Virus record (IMG/VR): IMGVR_UViG_2648501669_000005 | DNA: 4,313 nucleotides | From: a virus | Taxonomy: Duplodnaviria; Heunggongvirae; Uroviricota; Caudoviricetes | Strand: one strand, 5' to 3' | In this document: positions 1 to 4,313 of the stretch, in pieces | Layout of the letters: every line of letters starts with the position of its first letter | Numbering within the stretch: the stretch's first letter is position 1 | Translations under genes and position numbers: made by a program | Notes under the pieces: model-generated | The model's input: the letters and a program-made list of their open reading frames with translations, nothing else | What the model was told of the DNA's origin: nothing | Database searches by the model: none

Positions 1-42
1 AAGTTGGAGTCATTACCAAATAAACATATCGAATTAACTTAA
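1..42 (+). CDS. 3' end of an upstream ORF running off the window start (possibly the major tail/tail tube gene, by position only)
   Basis: Frame 1 is open from base 1 to TAA at 40-42, directly abutting the Shine-Dalgarno of the next gene. Too short to judge coding potential; the other two frames carry stops. Confidence 0.25.
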   Translation, partial: KLESLPNKHIELT

Positions 43-49
43 GAGGAAA
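41..49 (+). promoter_or_regulatory. Shine-Dalgarno sequence (AAGAGGAAA) for the ORF starting at 55
   Basis: Purine-rich AAGAGGAAA lies 5 nt upstream of ATG at 55. Confidence 0.6.
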
Positions 50-54
50 CAAGA

Positions 55-363
55 ATGAATATTAATGAAATGCTGAAAGCTCTTTCTCCGAAACGCGAAT
101 CTCTGACCATCGGTGGATTCACTTTCTATGCTCGCCCTATGTCAGTAAAAGAATTTAACGAACATGTTTTCAATACCGATAAAGATGACCGTGATGAACG
201 TTCTATTCTTCGTTGTATTGAAGATGAAGACGGTAAACCAGTATTTGAATCTATGGAACAAGTTAAGGCACTGTATACTAACGTCCGCAGTGAATTAATC
301 GGTTTGGTTGCTCAAGCGTCATTGATGCAAGATCCGACAGTAATTGAAAACGAGGTAAAGTAA
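55..363 (+). CDS. putative phage tail assembly chaperone (lambda gpG-like position), 102 aa
   Basis: Complete ORF with a strong SD, located immediately upstream of the tape measure gene and followed by a -1 frame ORF, which is the conserved G/GT arrangement. Assignment is by synteny and size, not by a verified domain match. Confidence 0.6.
   Translation: MNINEMLKALSPKRESLTIGGFTFYARPMSVKEFNEHVFNTDKDDRDERSILRCIEDEDGKPVFESMEQVKALYTNVRSELIGLVAQASLMQDPTVIENEVK
354..363 (+). other. candidate -1 ribosomal frameshift site (G GTA AAG TAA) at the end of the chaperone ORF
   Basis: The 0-frame ends GAG GTA AAG TAA. The -1 frame is open from 348 (after TGA at 345-347) into the ORF starting at 393. An A AAG lysine codon followed directly by a stop resembles known Lys-tRNA slip contexts. 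Confidence 0.35.
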
Positions 364-392
364 ACCCGCTTCTGAATTTCTATTTTCGGCAA

Positions 393-734
393 ATGATGCG
401 ATCGGGGCTTAGTAAAGATGAAATGGATAATATGCCAATCACTCTGTTTTGGAAATTATACATTTTCGACACCTACTTAGAACCACAAAGCCCCGCGTTT
501 CATGATATGCAGAATGCGATGTTGCAATATTCCATGTATATGACGTCGCAAGGAATGACACGCGAAACTGCACGCAAACTCAAGCCTAGCCAATTCCAAT
601 TAATTAGAGAAGAAAAACTCTTTAAAACTAAAGAAGAACTGGAAGAAATTGCACGCAAGAAAGAAGAAGAACGTAAAGCGGCAATGCTGAACATGTTTGA
701 TCCATCTTTGCTTGAGAAACTCAGAAGCGGTTAA
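393..734 (+). CDS. putative T-like extension of the tail assembly chaperone (113 aa from first ATG), likely expressed mainly as a frameshift fusion with 55-363
   Basis: ORF is in the -1 frame relative to 55-363. No recognisable SD precedes ATG 393 (upstream is tattttcggcaaATGATG). It ends 11 nt before the tape measure start. The Lys/Glu-rich C-terminal part is typical of the GT segment. Confidence 0.5.
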   Translation: MMRSGLSKDEMDNMPITLFWKLYIFDTYLEPQSPAFHDMQNAMLQYSMYMTSQGMTRETARKLKPSQFQLIREEKLFKTKEELEEIARKKEEERKAAMLNMFDPSLLEKLRSG

Positions 735-739
735 AGGGG
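734..739 (+). promoter_or_regulatory. Shine-Dalgarno (AAGGGG) for the tape measure gene
   Basis: AAGGGG lies 6 nt upstream of ATG 746 and overlaps the stop of the preceding ORF, consistent with translational coupling. Confidence 0.55.
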
Positions 740-745
740 TAATTT

Positions 746-3175
746 ATGACAAAACATATAGTAACAATAGAAGGGGATAATAAAGGTCTAAGGAGAAGTA
801 CCAATGAAGCCGCCGACCTTCTCGATAGTTTGTCTGAAAAGGCAAGTAATATTGATTTTGGTGGTGGCTTATCTGGTCTGACTGGATCTCTTCGTGGGAT
901 CGCTGGCTCTGCTGGTTTGGCTGCTGGTGGTATCGGCTTAGTTGCGACCGCAGTGGTTGCAGCCGCTAAAGCTGGCGCGGAATACGTTAAACAATATTCA
1001 GAAGTATCTAAGGCGACCGGACTCTCGATTGAATCCCTTCAAAGACTGGAAAAGGAATTTTCTGGTACTGGCCTAACAGTTGAAAAATTCGGTGATATCA
1101 ACAAAGACACCTTAGATAAGATGGGTGATGCATGGGCTAACGGTGGTGGTATTGCTGATGACTTAGAATCGGTTGGTCTTAAGTTAGAAAACTATGCTCA
1201 CTTCATGACAGATCCGCAAGGTGGTATGAAAGCGGCGATCCAAGTGTTCTATGACATGAAGAAAGCCGGAAAATCAATGGCTGAAATCAAGTTCATGATG
1301 GAATCTTTAGCCAGTGATTCAAGCCATATGACCAGCCAGCTTGAGAAATATAATAGTGCTCAAGAGGCGATGATCGCTATTCAGAATCAATCTGTTAACG
1401 TCACCGAAGAAAACGCTAAAAAATATGATAAATTTTCTCAGAATATTAATAAGCTGGAAAATAACCTGAAAGGCGCAGCCATGACCATTACTGGTCCTTT
1501 GGTTGATAGCTTAAACTGGTTATTTGAATGGTTTAATATTGATTGGGAAAAGAGTTCTCTATTCAGGGCATTAGACCGTCTGAATAAAGAAGGTAAGACC
1601 GCAACTGGTGGTATTCTTAACACCAACCATAAAGACGCTCAAAAGATTATTGACAAGTACAATAAAGAAAAGCGTTGGAATAATCTAGCAGATTGGGAAA
1701 AGGCCGCGATCCGTGGTGCTGGTGTCGATCCTCGTACTGCTGGCTTTGATGTAGAAGGATTTAAGAAACGTTTTGGTGGGTCTTATAAGAAAAATGGTGC
1801 TCTGATTGTCGTAGATGCTGGTGAACATCTGACACGCAAGGCAGATCCTAACACTGATTTAACTCTACCAAATAAACCAGTAAGACCAGAATCATTGGGT
1901 AAATCTGGCAACGAGAAGAAAGCCGAGGAAGAAGCACGCAAGAAAGCGGAAGAGGCAGCTAAAAAGGCTAAGGAAGCCGCAGAAAAAGCACAGAAAGAAC
2001 GTGAGGATGCAATCAAGCGTCTGAATGCACTTGATGTTAAATTGCAAGGGCAAGTTGCAGCGTCTATTGCTTCTCAAAACAAGCAGTTAGAAGCCAGCTT
2101 GAAAGATTTGGATACTGCTTTAGATCTGGGCTTAATCTCTCAGCAAGACGCAGCCGCGAAACGCCAATCCTTAATCGATCAGAATACTGAAAACGTATAC
2201 AAGATGATTTTAGGTGCTGATCCGGTTGATGCTCTGAATGCTTTAACACAATTGCAACAAATCAGGGATAATGAGTTAGAAAGCCATAAACGGTTACTTG
2301 ATGGTAAGGCTATCTCCTACGAAGAATATATGCGTCGTGTGAATGATACCGAACAAAGTTATTCGCAGATTGAAGATTCTTTGCATGGAATGGATGGTTT
2401 TAAAACCAATCAGTTGACCAATAGCTTAGACTATCAGGACTCAAATAATCCGTTTGCTAAATTTAATGCAATCGATAAAGAGAAATCGGAAGCCGAACAA
2501 GATTATAAAACCGATAAACTCAAGATTGATGGGATCACCGATCCGGCTAAACGGATGGAAGAATTAGAAAAACTCAATGAAAACCATCAAAAACGAATGG
2601 CTGCAATTGAGAAGAAATATGCTGATGCTCGCCAGTCAATAGCCGATGATATGTACGGCGGTTTTGCTGCTGCAATGACTCTCTTCGGGCAGGAAAACAC
2701 TAAAGCTATGCAGATGGCTTTCAATGCTCATAAAGCATTCTCTATCGGACAAGCGACGGTGAACATGTGGACGGCTGCTACCGATGCATGGAACGATCCG
2801 ACCAACGTAACCACAGGTCAAAAAATCGCTGCTGCTGCATTGGCTGTTTCTCAGAACATGGGGAACATCGCAAACATCAAGTCTACTAACGTTAGCGGTA
2901 TGGCTCATGATGGTATCGATAATATCCCTCGTGAGGGTACATGGTTGCTTGATAAGGGTGAACGAGTAGTTGATCAGCGTACTAACGGTGATTTGAAAGA
3001 CTTCCTTGCTGCTCAAAAATCAGGCGGTGGCAACTCTCAGCCGATTGAAGTTAACGCACCTTTGAACATTAACGGCAACGTTAATAGCTCAGACAAGATG
3101 GTCATGGATGCTATCAAACGTCACGCTAAGTTAGTTGCTCAGGCGGTAGAAGACGCACAACGCCGTAAGATGTAA
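746..3175 (+). CDS. phage tail tape measure protein (tail length determinant), 809 aa
   Basis: Largest ORF, directly downstream of the chaperone pair. It has a Gly/Ala-rich hydrophobic segment near the N-terminus (GGGLSGLTGSLRGIAGSAGLAAGGIGLVATAVVAAAKAG), a central Lys/Glu/Ala-rich predicted coiled coil (KKAEEEARKKAEEAAKKAKEAAEKAQKERE) and a C-terminal hydrophobic Ala/Gly-rich segment. This composition and position are characteristic of tape measure proteins. Confidence 0.85.
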   Translation: MTKHIVTIEGDNKGLRRSTNEAADLLDSLSEKASNIDFGGGLSGLTGSLRGIAGSAGLAAGGIGLVATAVVAAAKAGAEYVKQYSEVSKATGLSIESLQRLEKEFSGTGLTVEKFGDINKDTLDKMGDAWANGGGIADDLESVGLKLENYAHFMTDPQGGMKAAIQVFYDMKKAGKSMAEIKFMMESLASDSSHMTSQLEKYNSAQEAMIAIQNQSVNVTEENAKKYDKFSQNINKLENNLKGAAMTITGPLVDSLNWLFEWFNIDWEKSSLFRALDRLNKEGKTATGGILNTNHKDAQKIIDKYNKEKRWNNLADWEKAAIRGAGVDPRTAGFDVEGFKKRFGGSYKKNGALIVVDAGEHLTRKADPNTDLTLPNKPVRPESLGKSGNEKKAEEEARKKAEEAAKKAKEAAEKAQKEREDAIKRLNALDVKLQGQVAASIASQNKQLEASLKDLDTALDLGLISQQDAAAKRQSLIDQNTENVYKMILGADPVDALNALTQLQQIRDNELESHKRLLDGKAISYEEYMRRVNDTEQSYSQIEDSLHGMDGFKTNQLTNSLDYQDSNNPFAKFNAIDKEKSEAEQDYKTDKLKIDGITDPAKRMEELEKLNENHQKRMAAIEKKYADARQSIADDMYGGFAAAMTLFGQENTKAMQMAFNAHKAFSIGQATVNMWTAATDAWNDPTNVTTGQKIAAAALAVSQNMGNIANIKSTNVSGMAHDGIDNIPREGTWLLDKGERVVDQRTNGDLKDFLAAQKSGGGNSQPIEVNAPLNINGNVNSSDKMVMDAIKRHAKLVAQAVEDAQRRKM

Positions 3176-3177
3176 TT

Positions 3178-3225
3178 AAAAGCCCCCATAGTCATAAATA
3201 ATCATAAAACTATGGGGGCTTTTCT
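3178..3225 (+). terminator. perfect 14-bp inverted repeat hairpin with an 18-nt loop followed by TTTTCT; candidate intrinsic terminator or attenuator, or an RBS-sequestering structure
   Basis: AAAAGCCCCCATAG (3178-3191) is the exact reverse complement of CTATGGGGGCTTTT (3210-3223). The loop is tcataaataatcataaaa. The T-run is short (4 T). The GGGGG of the 3' arm doubles as the SD of the ORF at 3226. Confidence 0.45.
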
Positions 3226-3786
3226 ATGTTCAAATCCAAGAATATTAAAATCACAGATTTTACTCTTAAATCAAAACAGCCTTTCTTCAAGGCGCAATCT
3301 ATCTCCGGTAAATTTCAACGTCGCTTTACTGGCATTCATTTTTACGAAGCAGAATTTACCGCGAATTACATGGCTCAGGATATTAACGAAGTAAAAGAAT
3401 TTGTAGCACGTCACCTTTTTGGTCGTCCTTTTAGTGTGCCACTGTCTTACTTTTCAAAATATACAGGTGATGTACGCCAGATGGTTACGGCTGCTGCTGG
3501 TACTGCTCGCGGTGGGCGTAAGGTGAGAATCTCCAACTTCACCGGAACACTGAAAGCGGGAACTATCATCCAGTTTGAGAACCACAAGAAAATCTACACG
3601 ATCACCGAAGATGTGAAATCAGGTGGCGAAATGAAACTCTTCCCTAATTTGCGTCAGAACGTCCTGGCTGGTGAGGTGATCAAGTATCAGAACGTAGAAG
3701 GTGAATTTGTTCTCAAAACGGAAAATATCGATTGGAAGATCGCCCAGATTGGCAAGATGAAATTCGAATTAGTGGAGAATGTATAA
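3226..3786 (+). CDS. phage tail component of unknown identity, 186 aa (position of distal tail / minor tail protein)
   Basis: Complete ORF starting 7 nt after a GGGGG SD, immediately downstream of the tape measure gene. Its stop overlaps the next start as TAATG. Function is assigned by synteny only. Confidence 0.55.
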   Translation: MFKSKNIKITDFTLKSKQPFFKAQSISGKFQRRFTGIHFYEAEFTANYMAQDINEVKEFVARHLFGRPFSVPLSYFSKYTGDVRQMVTAAAGTARGGRKVRISNFTGTLKAGTIIQFENHKKIYTITEDVKSGGEMKLFPNLRQNVLAGEVIKYQNVEGEFVLKTENIDWKIAQIGKMKFELVENV

Positions 3787-4112
3787 TGGCAACTATTCAG
3801 GAATCATTCAGCAAACTATGCACTAATCTGGACTTCATCGAGGTATACAACGACCAGACAGGTCAGAATGTGTCTAGATTGACTCTACCGCAGCTTTTCT
3901 CTACTGGCTCGATGTTTCACATTATCGAAGTGATAACAGCGTCAGGGGACGTTCTACGGCTTACAGATGGGTATTTCGATTTGGACTATAACGGTTTTAC
4001 ATATCTCGCAACGGGTGATTTTCTTCAAATCTCATCGAATACCGAAGAGAAGGAGATCAACAACAACGGGATCAACGTAACTGTTTCTAACGTTCGCGAA
4101 GAATACATTTGA
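3786..4112 (+). CDS. phage tail protein, 108 aa as encoded; probably 3'-truncated by the IS insertion (stop codon TGA is supplied by the IS terminus)
   Basis: ATG at 3786 overlaps the upstream stop (TAATG) and is preceded by GGAG at 3774-3777, so it is preferred over the in-frame ATG at 3732 given in the ORF track. The reading frame ends ...GAA TAC ATT TGA, where TGA is the first three bases of the IS end (TGAAGTGG...). Confidence 0.55.
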   Translation: MATIQESFSKLCTNLDFIEVYNDQTGQNVSRLTLPQLFSTGSMFHIIEVITASGDVLRLTDGYFDLDYNGFTYLATGDFLQISSNTEEKEINNNGINVTVSNVREEYI

Positions 4113-4313
4113 AGTGGTTTACTGAATTTGGCCACCTGAACAGAGGTGATATGCTCACCTCAGAACAACACAGGTGCCATAATGAAAAAAAGAAATTTCA
4201 GCGCAGAGTTTAAACGCGAATCCGCTCAACTGGTCGTTGACCAGAATTACACCGTGGCAGTACCAACCAGCCCTAACTAATCCGTCCACACCACAACGCA
4301 GCCCAGGGGCAAA
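4110..4313 (+). mobile_element. left end of an IS3-family insertion sequence (IS911-like): terminal inverted repeat, leader and start of orfA; extends beyond or is broken before the window end
   Basis: Begins with 5'-TG (TGAAGTGGTTTACTGAATTTGGCCACC...), typical of IS3-family termini. About 70 nt downstream is an ORF starting [26 protein letters not shown], which I recognise as the N-terminus of IS3-family OrfA (IS911-type). GC content is visibly higher than in the flanking phage DNA. Confidence 0.6.
4182..4280 (+). pseudogene. 5' fragment of the IS3-family transposase orfA (32 codons, then premature stop)
   Basis: ATG at 4182 is preceded by AGGTG. Translation is [32 protein letters not shown]. 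An intact OrfA is roughly 100 aa with a helix-turn-helix after this point. Here the sequence diverges after about 4260 and reaches TAA at 4278-4280. Confidence 0.45.

What the first reader, a model, noticed from the sequence alone, without database searches (positions are those of the whole stretch)
345..395. Candidate programmed -1 frameshift producing a G-T-like chaperone fusion
The ORF at 393 is in the -1 frame relative to 55-363, and that frame is open from 348. The 0-frame ends GAG GTA AAG TAA, so a Lys-tRNA slip from AAG (358-360) to AAA (357-359), possibly promoted by the adjacent stop codon, would continue as VNPLLNFYFRQMMRSG... into the downstream ORF and give a fusion of about 226 aa. 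The heptamer GGTAAAG differs by one base from the lambda G-T slip site GGGAAAG. The downstream ORF has no Shine-Dalgarno of its own. A frameshifted chaperone pair directly upstream of the tape measure gene is a conserved feature of long-tailed phages.
Basis: partly seen in the sequence, partly recalled or inferred. Interest (0 to 1): 0.5.

Follow-up and report, generated by a model that had tools for sequence, protein, structure and literature searches.

The report
Frameshifted phage tail chaperone gene pair
Two overlapping genes just upstream of a prophage's tail-length ruler gene are almost certainly joined by a deliberate backward ribosome slip on the bases A-AAG, as in phage lambda's G/GT tail chaperones; this is an ordinary, well-known arrangement that genome annotation missed here.

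Summary
ORF1 (55-363) ends GAG GTA AAG TAA. The next ORF is in the -1 frame, which is open only from 348. That ORF has no ribosome-binding site, and the predicted fusion is 226 aa.

In all 17 distinct relatives found (E. coli and other prophages, metagenomes, phage DCP80) the second ORF is in the -1 frame. In all 17 the aligned Lys codon is AAG preceded by A.

Elsewhere in these genes Lys is AAG only 15% of the time. Two relatives carry textbook slip heptamers at exactly this codon: A_AAA_AAG and T_TTA_AAG.

The 33 bases between the slip site and the first ATG evolve as -1-frame coding sequence (16 synonymous to 7 non-synonymous changes, against 1:16 in each other frame). Several relatives have no start codon there.

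ORF1 has a tail-assembly-chaperone fold (best solved match HK97 TAC, 2OB9). The extension resembles lambda gpT.

No downstream RNA structure or conserved upstream Shine-Dalgarno stimulator was found. The site in this window is a bare A_AAG tetramer next to a stop codon, not a canonical heptamer.

Verdict: a real, unannotated new member of a known kind. Interest is low to moderate.

The parts
43..46 (+). Shine-Dalgarno (GAGG) of ORF1, 8 nt before ATG 55
   Evidence: Read directly from the sequence.
55..363 (+). ORF1: gpG-like tail assembly chaperone, 102 aa, the product of normal 0-frame decoding
   Evidence: ORF listed. phrog_344 'tail assembly chaperone', E 8.3e-7. Pfam Phage_TAC_13 at 21.5 bits, below the 28.8 cut-off, but matched by 11 of 13 relatives, best E 2e-6. 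AlphaFold model pLDDT 79; best PDB match is the HK97 tail assembly chaperone 2OB9, prob 1.00, TM 0.54-0.58.
345..347 (+). TGA in the -1 frame; upstream limit of the 13-nt window in which the shift must occur
   Evidence: -1 frame open from 348.
354..360 (+). Shift site G_GTA_AAG. The conserved core is the tetramer A_AAG (357-360): tRNA-Lys re-pairs from AAG (358-360) to AAA (357-359)
   Evidence: NNA_AAG is invariant at the aligned Lys codon in 17 lineages. AAG is used 13 of 13 times here against 14 of 94 Lys codons elsewhere in ORF1. Relatives carry T_TTA_AAG and A_AAA_AAG at the same codon. A_AAG is the most shift-prone tetramer in E. coli (PMC4066793).
361..363 (+). TAA stop of ORF1, directly 3' of the slip codon; a possible 'shifty stop' enhancer (inferred)
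   Evidence: The stop follows AAG immediately in 7 of 17 lineages and within one codon in 13 of 17. 25 of 28 database homologues end at this Lys.
360..392 (+). -1-frame codons VNPLLNFYFRQ upstream of the first ATG; reachable only by frameshifting
   Evidence: Codon changes against four relatives: 16 synonymous to 7 non-synonymous in the -1 frame, 1:16 in the 0 frame and 1:16 in the +1 frame. Contains invariant F7 and near-invariant R10 of the extension alignment.
360..734 (+). -1-frame extension (gpT-like domain), 124 aa plus stop. Fusion product = join(55..360, 360..734), 226 aa
   Evidence: Pfam Phage_tail_T at 21.5-21.8 bits, below the 25.9 cut-off, matched by 6 of 13 relatives, best E 1.9e-6. 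No Shine-Dalgarno before ATG 393.
746..3175 (+). Tail tape measure protein gene, 809 aa, immediately downstream: the presumed client of the chaperone
   Evidence: phrog_13674 E 8.8e-64. Annotated as tape measure in NZ_CM149869.1.

Best explanation
**What it is.** The window is the tail-assembly module of an E. coli siphovirus-like prophage. Most ribosomes translate ORF1 (55-363) to its TAA and release a 102-aa gpG-like tail assembly chaperone.

**The shift.** A minority of ribosomes slip back one base at A_AAG (357-360): tRNA-Lys, which decoded AAG 358-360, re-pairs with AAA 357-359. Decoding then continues with GUA AAC CCG ... to the stop at 732-734. The product is a 226-aa fusion, ...IENEVK-VNPLLNFYFRQMMRSG..., whose C-terminal half is gpT-like.

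**Inferred function.** By analogy with lambda G/GT, the shared N-terminal part would bind the tape measure protein encoded at 746-3175. The extension would recruit the tail tube protein. The low slip frequency would set the G:GT ratio.

**Shown here**
- The reading-frame geometry.
- Family-wide conservation of A_AAG and of the -1 arrangement.
- -1-frame coding constraint upstream of any start codon.
- The TAC-like fold of ORF1.

**Inferred**
- That the fusion is made, and how efficiently.
- Which kinetic route is used. No RNA structure or conserved Shine-Dalgarno stimulator exists, and the P-site codon cannot re-pair well. I therefore favour (about 60:40) slippage of the single peptidyl-tRNA-Lys in the P site while the A site holds the slowly decoded UAA. 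The alternative is slippage of tRNA-Lys at the A site or during translocation on an NNA_AAG hexamer. Both routes give the same protein.
For: **Frame geometry and missing ribosome-binding site**
-.

**Conservation of the arrangement**
- About 60 loci of the window's own clade all keep ...GAAAACGAGGTAAAGTA[A/G] while neighbouring codons vary.
- In 17 distinct lineages (ORF1 identity across the 13 aligned lineages falls to 30%), ORF2 is always in the -1 frame.
- The aligned Lys is always AAG preceded by A. The forms seen are GTA/GCA/GAA_AAG, T_TTA_AAG and A_AAA_AAG.

**Codon statistics**
- AAG makes up 14 of 94 other Lys codons in ORF1.
- The slip site is the only in-frame NNA_AAG in 11 of 13 ORF1s.

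**Translation in the -1 frame before any start codon**
- In segment 360-392, synonymous to non-synonymous changes are 16:7 in the -1 frame and 1:16 in each of the other two frames.
- The first possible start codon in the extension lies anywhere from codon 5 to codon 30 in relatives; the first ATG is as late as codon 79 (L110). None has a Shine-Dalgarno sequence.
- Invariant residues of the extension lie upstream of the window's first Met.

**Protein identity**
- ORF1: phrog_344 TAC; Phage_TAC_13 in 11 of 13 relatives; fold match to HK97 TAC 2OB9 and to viral TACs.
- Extension: Phage_tail_T in 6 of 13 relatives.
- A tape measure gene follows directly, and a lambda-like tail tube gene lies upstream.

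**Literature**
- A_AAG is the best -1 tetramer in E. coli (PMC4066793).
- NNA_AAG sites are used naturally by IS1222 and B. subtilis cdd, and lambda G/GT uses low-level -1 shifting (PMC5009743).
- One-tRNA P-site slippage with a vacant A site needs no downstream structure (PMC6771820).
Against: - There is no experimental evidence of the fusion protein.
- In reporter constructs, A_AAG without a stimulator was barely above background (about 0.15% against 0.11%; PMC4066793).
- No downstream structure was found here. The window's fold gives z = +1.9, the alignment fold gives 0 consensus pairs, and 13 relatives share no fold.
- The GAGG at 352-355 abuts the site and is not conserved in relatives, so efficiency could be very low.
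- The P-site codon GUA cannot re-pair with GGU, so this is not a canonical X_XXY_YYZ site.
- The adjacent stop is absent in 10 of 17 lineages, so it cannot be a universal requirement.
- The Pfam matches of the window's own proteins are below the gathering thresholds.
- RefSeq (PGAP) annotates two separate genes without slippage.
Confidence: 0.88

Rival explanations
1. There is no recoding. ORF2 is an independent gene, translated from ATG 393 (or 396, 420 or 432, the last being the RefSeq start). Initiation would be de novo or by termination-reinitiation after the TAA at 361.
For: ATG ATG at 393-398 lies 30 nt after the stop. PGAP annotates a separate gene from the position equivalent to window 432. 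Many relatives keep Met-Met here.
Against: There is no Shine-Dalgarno before any of these ATGs. The Met is replaced by Ile, Leu or Ala in L101, L104, L105, L110, L116 and DCP80, and L110 has no ATG until codon 79 (zero-based index 78). The 33 nt upstream of the ATG are under -1-frame purifying selection and contain invariant residues. This model also does not explain why AAG preceded by A is invariant at the last shared codon.
Confidence: 0.05
2. The -1 shift happens at the other slippery tetramer in the 13-nt window: A_AAC (348-351, 0-frame GAA AAC). The junction would then be ...VIEN-RGKVNPLL....
For: A_AAC lies inside the open -1 window. X_XXA_AAC sites work in eukaryotic viruses (PMC5009743).
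Against: It is not conserved. Relatives have GAA GAA TCG, GAA CAA GAA, GAA CTG and others at this position. A_AAC was not among the six shift-prone tetramers in E. coli (PMC4066793).
Confidence: 0.03
3. A +5 hop exploits the pentanucleotide repeat GTAAA-GTAAA (355-364). Peptidyl-tRNA-Val would leave GUA 355-357 and land on GUA 360-362, giving ...ENEV-NPLL....
For: The direct repeat GTAAAGTAAA exists in the window. Hops between matched codons across a stop have been described (Weiss et al. 1987, cited in PMC5009743).
Against: The repeat is absent from the GAA_AAG, GCA_AAG, TTA_AAG and AAA_AAG lineages, which keep the same -1 arrangement. AAG is an ordinary codon and gives no pause at take-off.
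Confidence: 0.01
4. The frame change is damage or an artefact: a frameshift mutation or sequencing error in what was once a single gene in a decaying prophage.
For: The prophage does carry IS insertions.
Against: The same -1 offset occurs in every relative, including 50 complete E. coli genomes at 80% coverage or more, IMG/VR contigs, metagenomes and a cultured phage. Both reading frames remain under purifying selection.
Confidence: 0.01

Closest known systems
Phage lambda gpG / gpGT tail assembly chaperones, the conserved frameshift of long-tailed phages (Levin 1993; Xu, Hendrix and Duda 2004, 2013, 2014; as summarised in PMC5009743)
   Same: Two overlapping ORFs sit directly upstream of the tape measure gene. 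The second ORF is in the -1 frame without its own start signals. The slip uses tRNA-Lys on A_AAG near the end of the first ORF. No RNA stimulator is present. The extension matches the lambda gpT Pfam family weakly.
   Different: Lambda uses the canonical heptamer G_GGA_AAG, which allows two-tRNA re-pairing. Here the P-site codon is GUA, which cannot re-pair, and the 0-frame stop abuts the slip codon. ORF1 belongs to a different sequence family (Phage_TAC_13-like). In this prophage a Gp38-like adhesin gene sits between the tail tube gene and ORF1.
HK97 tail assembly chaperone (PDB 2OB9)
   Same: It is the best solved-structure match to the ORF1 model (Foldseek prob 1.00, TM 0.54-0.58) and has a similar size.
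   Different: Sequence identity is only about 20-22%, the E-value is 4e-3, and rmsd is 4.6-8.8 Å. The similarity is at fold level, not family level.
NNA_AAG / Z_ZZN minimal -1 shift sites: IS1222 (G_CGA_AAG) and B. subtilis cdd (A_CGA_AAG) (PMC5009743, PMC4066793)
   Same: The shift relies on single tRNA-Lys re-pairing AAG to AAA, with a non-slippery 5' codon ending in A.
   Different: The published tetramer measurements needed a pseudoknot to rise above background (PMC4066793). No stimulator other than the adjacent stop codon is visible here.
E. coli dnaX and IS3/IS911 A_AAA_AAG frameshifting
   Same: The same tRNA-Lys slip occurs. One relative (L114) carries exactly A_AAA_AAG at the homologous codon.
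   Different: Those systems have an upstream Shine-Dalgarno sequence, a downstream hairpin or pseudoknot, or both, and reach high efficiency. None of these is present in this family.

Membership tests
gpG/gpGT-type frameshifted tail assembly chaperone pair | Two adjacent or overlapping ORFs immediately upstream of the tape measure gene and downstream of the tail tube gene | tested here: met
   ORF1 55-363, ORF2 frame 348-734, tape measure gene 746-3175. A lambda-like tail tube gene lies upstream in the parent prophage, with a Gp38-like adhesin gene in between.
gpG/gpGT-type frameshifted tail assembly chaperone pair | The second ORF is in an alternative frame, overlaps the end of the first and lacks its own conserved start codon and Shine-Dalgarno sequence | tested here: met
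   -1 frame with a 13-nt overlap. No Shine-Dalgarno, and the first start codon varies between codon 5 and codon 30 (first ATG as late as codon 79, L110) in relatives.
gpG/gpGT-type frameshifted tail assembly chaperone pair | A slippery sequence in the overlap that is conserved among relatives | tested here: met
   A_AAG is present in 17 of 17 lineages at the aligned Lys codon.
gpG/gpGT-type frameshifted tail assembly chaperone pair | The alternative frame is translated from the slip site onward, shown by coding constraint upstream of any start | tested here: met
   Synonymous to non-synonymous changes are 16:7 in the -1 frame against 1:16 in each other frame over 360-392. Invariant F7 and near-invariant R10 lie there.
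gpG/gpGT-type frameshifted tail assembly chaperone pair | The fusion protein is actually produced at a low, fixed ratio and is required for tail assembly | not testable with these tools
   This needs a reporter assay, mass spectrometry or genetics.
Canonical X_XXY_YYZ tandem-slippage site (lambda G_GGA_AAG type) | The heptamer allows both P-site and A-site tRNAs to re-pair in the -1 frame | tested here: not met
   The window has G_GTA_AAG. GUA to GGU leaves only one Watson-Crick pair for tRNA-Val (inference from codon-anticodon rules). Two relatives do meet the rule: T_TTA_AAG and A_AAA_AAG.
Pfam Phage_TAC_13 (PF16459) | Score at or above the gathering threshold (28.8 bits) | tested here: inconclusive
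   The window protein scores 21.5 bits, E 3.2e-4. 11 of 13 relatives match at E<=0.01, best 2e-6. One database homologue carries a precomputed PF16459 hit. The fold match to HK97 TAC supports the assignment.
Pfam Phage_tail_T (PF06223, lambda gpT domain) | Score at or above the gathering threshold (25.9 bits) | tested here: inconclusive
   The window extension scores 21.5-21.8 bits, E about 3e-4. 6 of 13 relatives match, best E 1.9e-6.
Stimulated bacterial -1 PRF (dnaX / IS3 type) | A downstream hairpin or pseudoknot, an upstream Shine-Dalgarno-like stimulator at about 10 nt, or both | tested here: not met
   The fold z-score is +1.9. The consensus structure has 0 pairs. 13 relatives share no fold. 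GAGG 352-355 abuts the site and is not conserved.

The most novel reading that the evidence does not exclude
In this chaperone family the G:GT ratio is set by a bare A_AAG tetramer whose only stimulator is the 0-frame stop codon placed at or next to the slip codon. This would be a natural '-1 shifty stop': one-tRNA P-site slippage while the A site waits for a release factor. On this reading, lineages have repeatedly switched between that solution and a canonical heptamer with a distant stop. The hint is that both heptamer lineages have the stop 6-10 codons away, whereas 13 of 15 tetramer lineages have it 0-1 codon away. The naive hypergeometric p is about 0.04, and the lineages are not independent.
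Probability: 0.3. Interest if true: 0.45.

Novelty: new member of a known kind. Interest (0 to 1): 0.25.

Why it matters
**Annotation.** The practical value is mainly a correction.
- RefSeq lists these as two unrelated hypothetical genes. The second is truncated at its 5' end.
- NCBI names the first gene's homologues 'cytochrome'.
- They should be annotated as a tail assembly chaperone and its ribosomal-slippage fusion, join(55..360,360..734).

**Biology.**
- The finding extends the conserved G/GT frameshift to an uncultured group of enterobacterial prophages.
- The family is a small natural series in which one codon carries GTA/GCA/GAA_AAG, with or without an adjacent stop, T_TTA_AAG, or A_AAA_AAG.
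- That series could be used to measure how slip-site strength and stop proximity trade off to fix a chaperone ratio.
- None of this challenges current understanding.

Tried and rejected
- **Fusion search against the protein database.** Searching with the 226-aa fusion returned no hit at E<=1e-3, although ORF1 alone found 31. I treat the null as a limitation of the tool.
- **Cultured phages.** Only one distant relative was found, DCP80.
- **PDB sequence profile searches.** ORF1 and the extension found nothing meaningful.
- **Downstream stimulatory RNA.** None was found in the single-sequence fold, the alignment fold, or 13 individual folds.
- **Upstream Shine-Dalgarno stimulator.** GAGG 352-355 is too close to the site and is not conserved.
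- **Alternative start codons.** In the extension, CTG at 372 is TTG in some relatives and TTA in L090. It has no Shine-Dalgarno at a workable distance. Rejected.
- **Transcriptional slippage.** There is no homopolymer run in the window (AAA only). Rejected.
- **+1 frame.** It closes at 410-412 and does not lead into ORF2. Rejected.
- **Structure prediction.** It was redone with database homologues.
- **Genome-collection scan.** It gave only one locus.

Full report
**1. What is in the window**

The 4313-base window is 100% identical over 18-4100 to a prophage in E. coli HCP5S3_I4 (NZ_CM149869.1). Related copies occur in 56 of 5426 complete E. coli genomes.

The gene order in the window is as follows.

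| Coordinates | Feature | Evidence |
|---|---|---|
| 55-363 | ORF1, 102 aa | see section 6 |
| 348-734 | ORF in the -1 frame, first ATG at 393 | see sections 2 and 6 |
| 746-3175 | tape measure protein, 809 aa | phrog_13674 E 9e-64 |
| 3226-3786 | distal tail protein | phrog_1302 E 1.5e-16 |
| from 3786 | start of a baseplate-hub gene | cut by an IS3-family element |

In the parent prophage a lambda-like tail tube gene and a Gp38-like adhesin gene lie just upstream.

**2. Checking the observation**

- The 0 frame ends GAG GTA AAG TAA (352-363).
- The -1 frame has TGA at 345-347 and is then open to 732-734, so only 348-360 is available for a shift.
- A shift at AAG gives a 226-aa product...IENEVK-VNPLLNFYFRQMMRSG....
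- ATG 393 has no Shine-Dalgarno sequence. ORF1 and the tape measure gene do.

Every statement of fact in the finding is correct.

**3. Comparative test**

I collected relatives from four sources:
- IMG/VR;
- a species-representative genome set;
- metagenomes;
- public assemblies, plus the one cultured phage with a relative, DCP80.

About 60 loci of the window's own clade keep GAAAACGAGGTAAAGTA(A/G) unchanged while nearby codons vary. One variant has a GTA duplication (GTAAAGTAGTAAAC) that keeps both frames intact.

Across 17 distinct lineages the downstream ORF is always in the -1 frame. ORF1 identity across the 13 aligned lineages falls to 30%. The aligned Lys codon (K102) is always AAG preceded by A.

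| Sequence at the slip site | Lineages | 0-frame codons between AAG and the stop |
|---|---|---|
| GTA AAG TAA | window, L093, L090, L101, L103 | 0 |
| GCA AAG TAA | L116 | 0 |
| GAA AAG TAA | L106 | 0 |
| GAA AAG AAC/AAA/AAT TAA | L105, L109, L104, L110, L135 | 1 |
| GAA AAG CCC TGA | L136 | 1 |
| GTA AAG AAA... | L102 | 4 |
| GTA AAG GAA... | L108 | 11 |
| A_AAA_AAG | L114 | 6 |
| T_TTA_AAG | DCP80 | 10 |

The last two are textbook X_XXY_YYZ heptamers, and they sit on exactly the same codon.

- Elsewhere in ORF1, Lys is AAA 80 times and AAG 14 times. AAG at the slip codon in 13 of 13 aligned lineages is therefore not codon bias.
- In 11 of 13 ORF1s this is the only in-frame NNA_AAG.

**4. 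Is the -1 frame translated from the slip site?**

I compared the 33 nt between the slip site and the window's first ATG with four relatives.

| Frame | Synonymous codon changes | Non-synonymous codon changes |
|---|---|---|
| -1 | 16 | 7 |
| 0 | 1 | 16 |
| +1 | 1 | 16 |

- The alignment of the extension has invariant F7 and near-invariant R10 upstream of the first Met.
- The position of the first possible start codon ranges from codon 5 to codon 30; the first ATG is as late as codon 79 (L110). None has a Shine-Dalgarno sequence.
- Several lineages have Ile, Leu or Ala where the window has Met-Met.

Independent initiation therefore cannot explain the conserved N-terminal part of the domain.

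**5. Stimulators**

- The region downstream of the site folds no better than shuffled sequence (z = +1.9).
- An alignment of seven relatives gives no consensus pairs.
- Thirteen relatives folded singly share no structure.
- The GAGG at 352-355 abuts the site and is not conserved.

The only recurring context feature is the nearby 0-frame stop. It is immediate in 7 of 17 lineages and within one codon in 13 of 17. At protein level, 25 of 28 database homologues end at this Lys.

Both heptamer-bearing lineages have distant stops. This is a hint that stop proximity compensates for a weak site. The sample is small and the lineages are not independent.

**6. Protein identity**

ORF1:
- It matches phrog_344 'tail assembly chaperone' (E 8e-7).
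- It matches Pfam Phage_TAC_13 below threshold. The match is seen in 11 of 13 relatives, best E 2e-6.
- An AlphaFold model built with 28 homologues has pLDDT 79 and pTM 0.67.
- Its best solved match is the HK97 tail assembly chaperone 2OB9 (prob 1.00, TM 0.54-0.58). It also matches viral proteins annotated as TACs.

The extension:
- It matches Pfam Phage_tail_T, the lambda gpT domain. The match is below threshold in the window and is seen in 6 of 13 relatives, best E 1.9e-6.

**7. Mechanism**

From the literature:
- The minimal -1 site is a Z_ZZN tetramer.
- A_AAG is the most shift-prone tetramer in E. coli. It reached 5.6% with a pseudoknot but was near background without one (PMC4066793).
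- NNA_AAG sites are used by IS1222 and occur in B. subtilis cdd. Their efficiency depends on the 5' codon (PMC5009743).
- Lambda G/GT works at about 1:30 (PMC5009743).
- -1 shifting can proceed by two-tRNA slippage during translocation. [quoted passage not shown]

In the window GUA cannot re-pair with GGU, so only tRNA-Lys can slip. With UAA next to it, P-site slippage during slow termination is plausible. In lineages with a sense codon after AAG, the slip must occur at the A site or during translocation. Both routes give the same protein, so sequence alone cannot separate them. Efficiency is unknown and may be low.

**8. Rival explanations**

- Independent initiation or reinitiation of ORF2: rejected on the evidence in section 4.
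- A shift at A_AAC 348-351: not conserved, and a poor tetramer in E. coli.
- A +5 hop between the two GTAAA repeats: the repeat is absent in most lineages.
- A mutation or sequencing artefact: the arrangement is universal in the family.

**9. Comparison with what is known, and novelty**

This is a member of the conserved gpG/gpGT class of frameshifted tail assembly chaperones. It differs from lambda in using a non-canonical site (tetramer plus adjacent stop) and in belonging to a different TAC sequence family.

RefSeq does not annotate it. ORF2 is called from the position equivalent to window 432, and ORF1 homologues are named 'cytochrome'.

I rate it a new member of a known kind. Confidence that a programmed -1 shift at A_AAG makes a G-T-like fusion is about 0.88. 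Interest is 0.25.

Noticed in passing
window 3178-3223: A perfect 15-bp inverted repeat (AAAAGCCCCCATAGT / ACTATGGGGGCTTTT) with a 16-nt loop lies between the tape measure stop (3175) and the next gene's start (3226). It looks like a terminator or an mRNA-stabilising hairpin inside the tail operon. The simple terminator scan missed it because of the long loop.
   Followed up: partly
window 4098-4313: The baseplate-hub gene that starts at 3786 is intact (654 nt) in NZ_CM149869.1. In the window it is cut at about 4100-4110 by the end of an IS3-family element (IS911/ISEc52-like, 93-97% identity to about 4275). The last roughly 38 bases (4276-4313) matched nothing in these searches.
   Followed up: partly
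window 55-363 and database homologues P0001-P0027: NCBI and UniRef name the ORF1 homologues in E. coli, Salmonella, Proteus and Edwardsiella 'cytochrome'. Nothing in the sequence, the Pfam or PHROG hits, or the fold supports that name. It looks like a propagated misannotation of a tail assembly chaperone.
   Followed up: partly
window 432-734 (L001 15415-15717): RefSeq starts ORF2 at the third or fourth in-frame ATG (the position equivalent to window 432). This drops 24 residues of the extension, including the invariant F7, R14, G16 and L17.
   Followed up: yes
L018 / L042 / L081 (IMGVR_UViG_2778260996_000020), junction: A 3-nt duplication gives GTAAAGTAGTAAAC. The 0-frame stop becomes TAG and the -1 product gains one Val. 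The slip site and both frames survive.
   Followed up: partly
L031 / L038 / L072 (IMGVR_UViG_2925919700_000005): ORF1 is interrupted after codon 74 by an insertion of about 1.4 kb, probably an IS element, so this copy's chaperone gene is broken.
   Followed up: no
L001 14489-14995, just upstream of window position 55: A Gp38-like tail-fibre adhesin gene (Pfam Gp38_N E 2e-15, phrog_1121) sits between the tail tube gene and the chaperone gene. In relative L114 the order is fibre, Gp38, tube, chaperone. The receptor-binding module appears to have moved within the tail operon.
   Followed up: partly
L067 (Escherichia phage DCP80, PQ671644.1): The only cultured-phage relative is a 141-kb record classified as Straboviridae/Tevenvirinae. 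It nevertheless carries a siphovirus-type chaperone and tape-measure module, with all genes annotated 'hypothetical'. The classification or the assembly may be wrong.
   Followed up: no
L113 (JBEBQJ010000175.1): A contig binned as a Sphingobacterium yanglingense MAG carries a junction identical to the IMG/VR locus L107 and differing from L106 by two bases upstream of the slip site. This suggests mis-binning rather than a Bacteroidota host.
   Followed up: no
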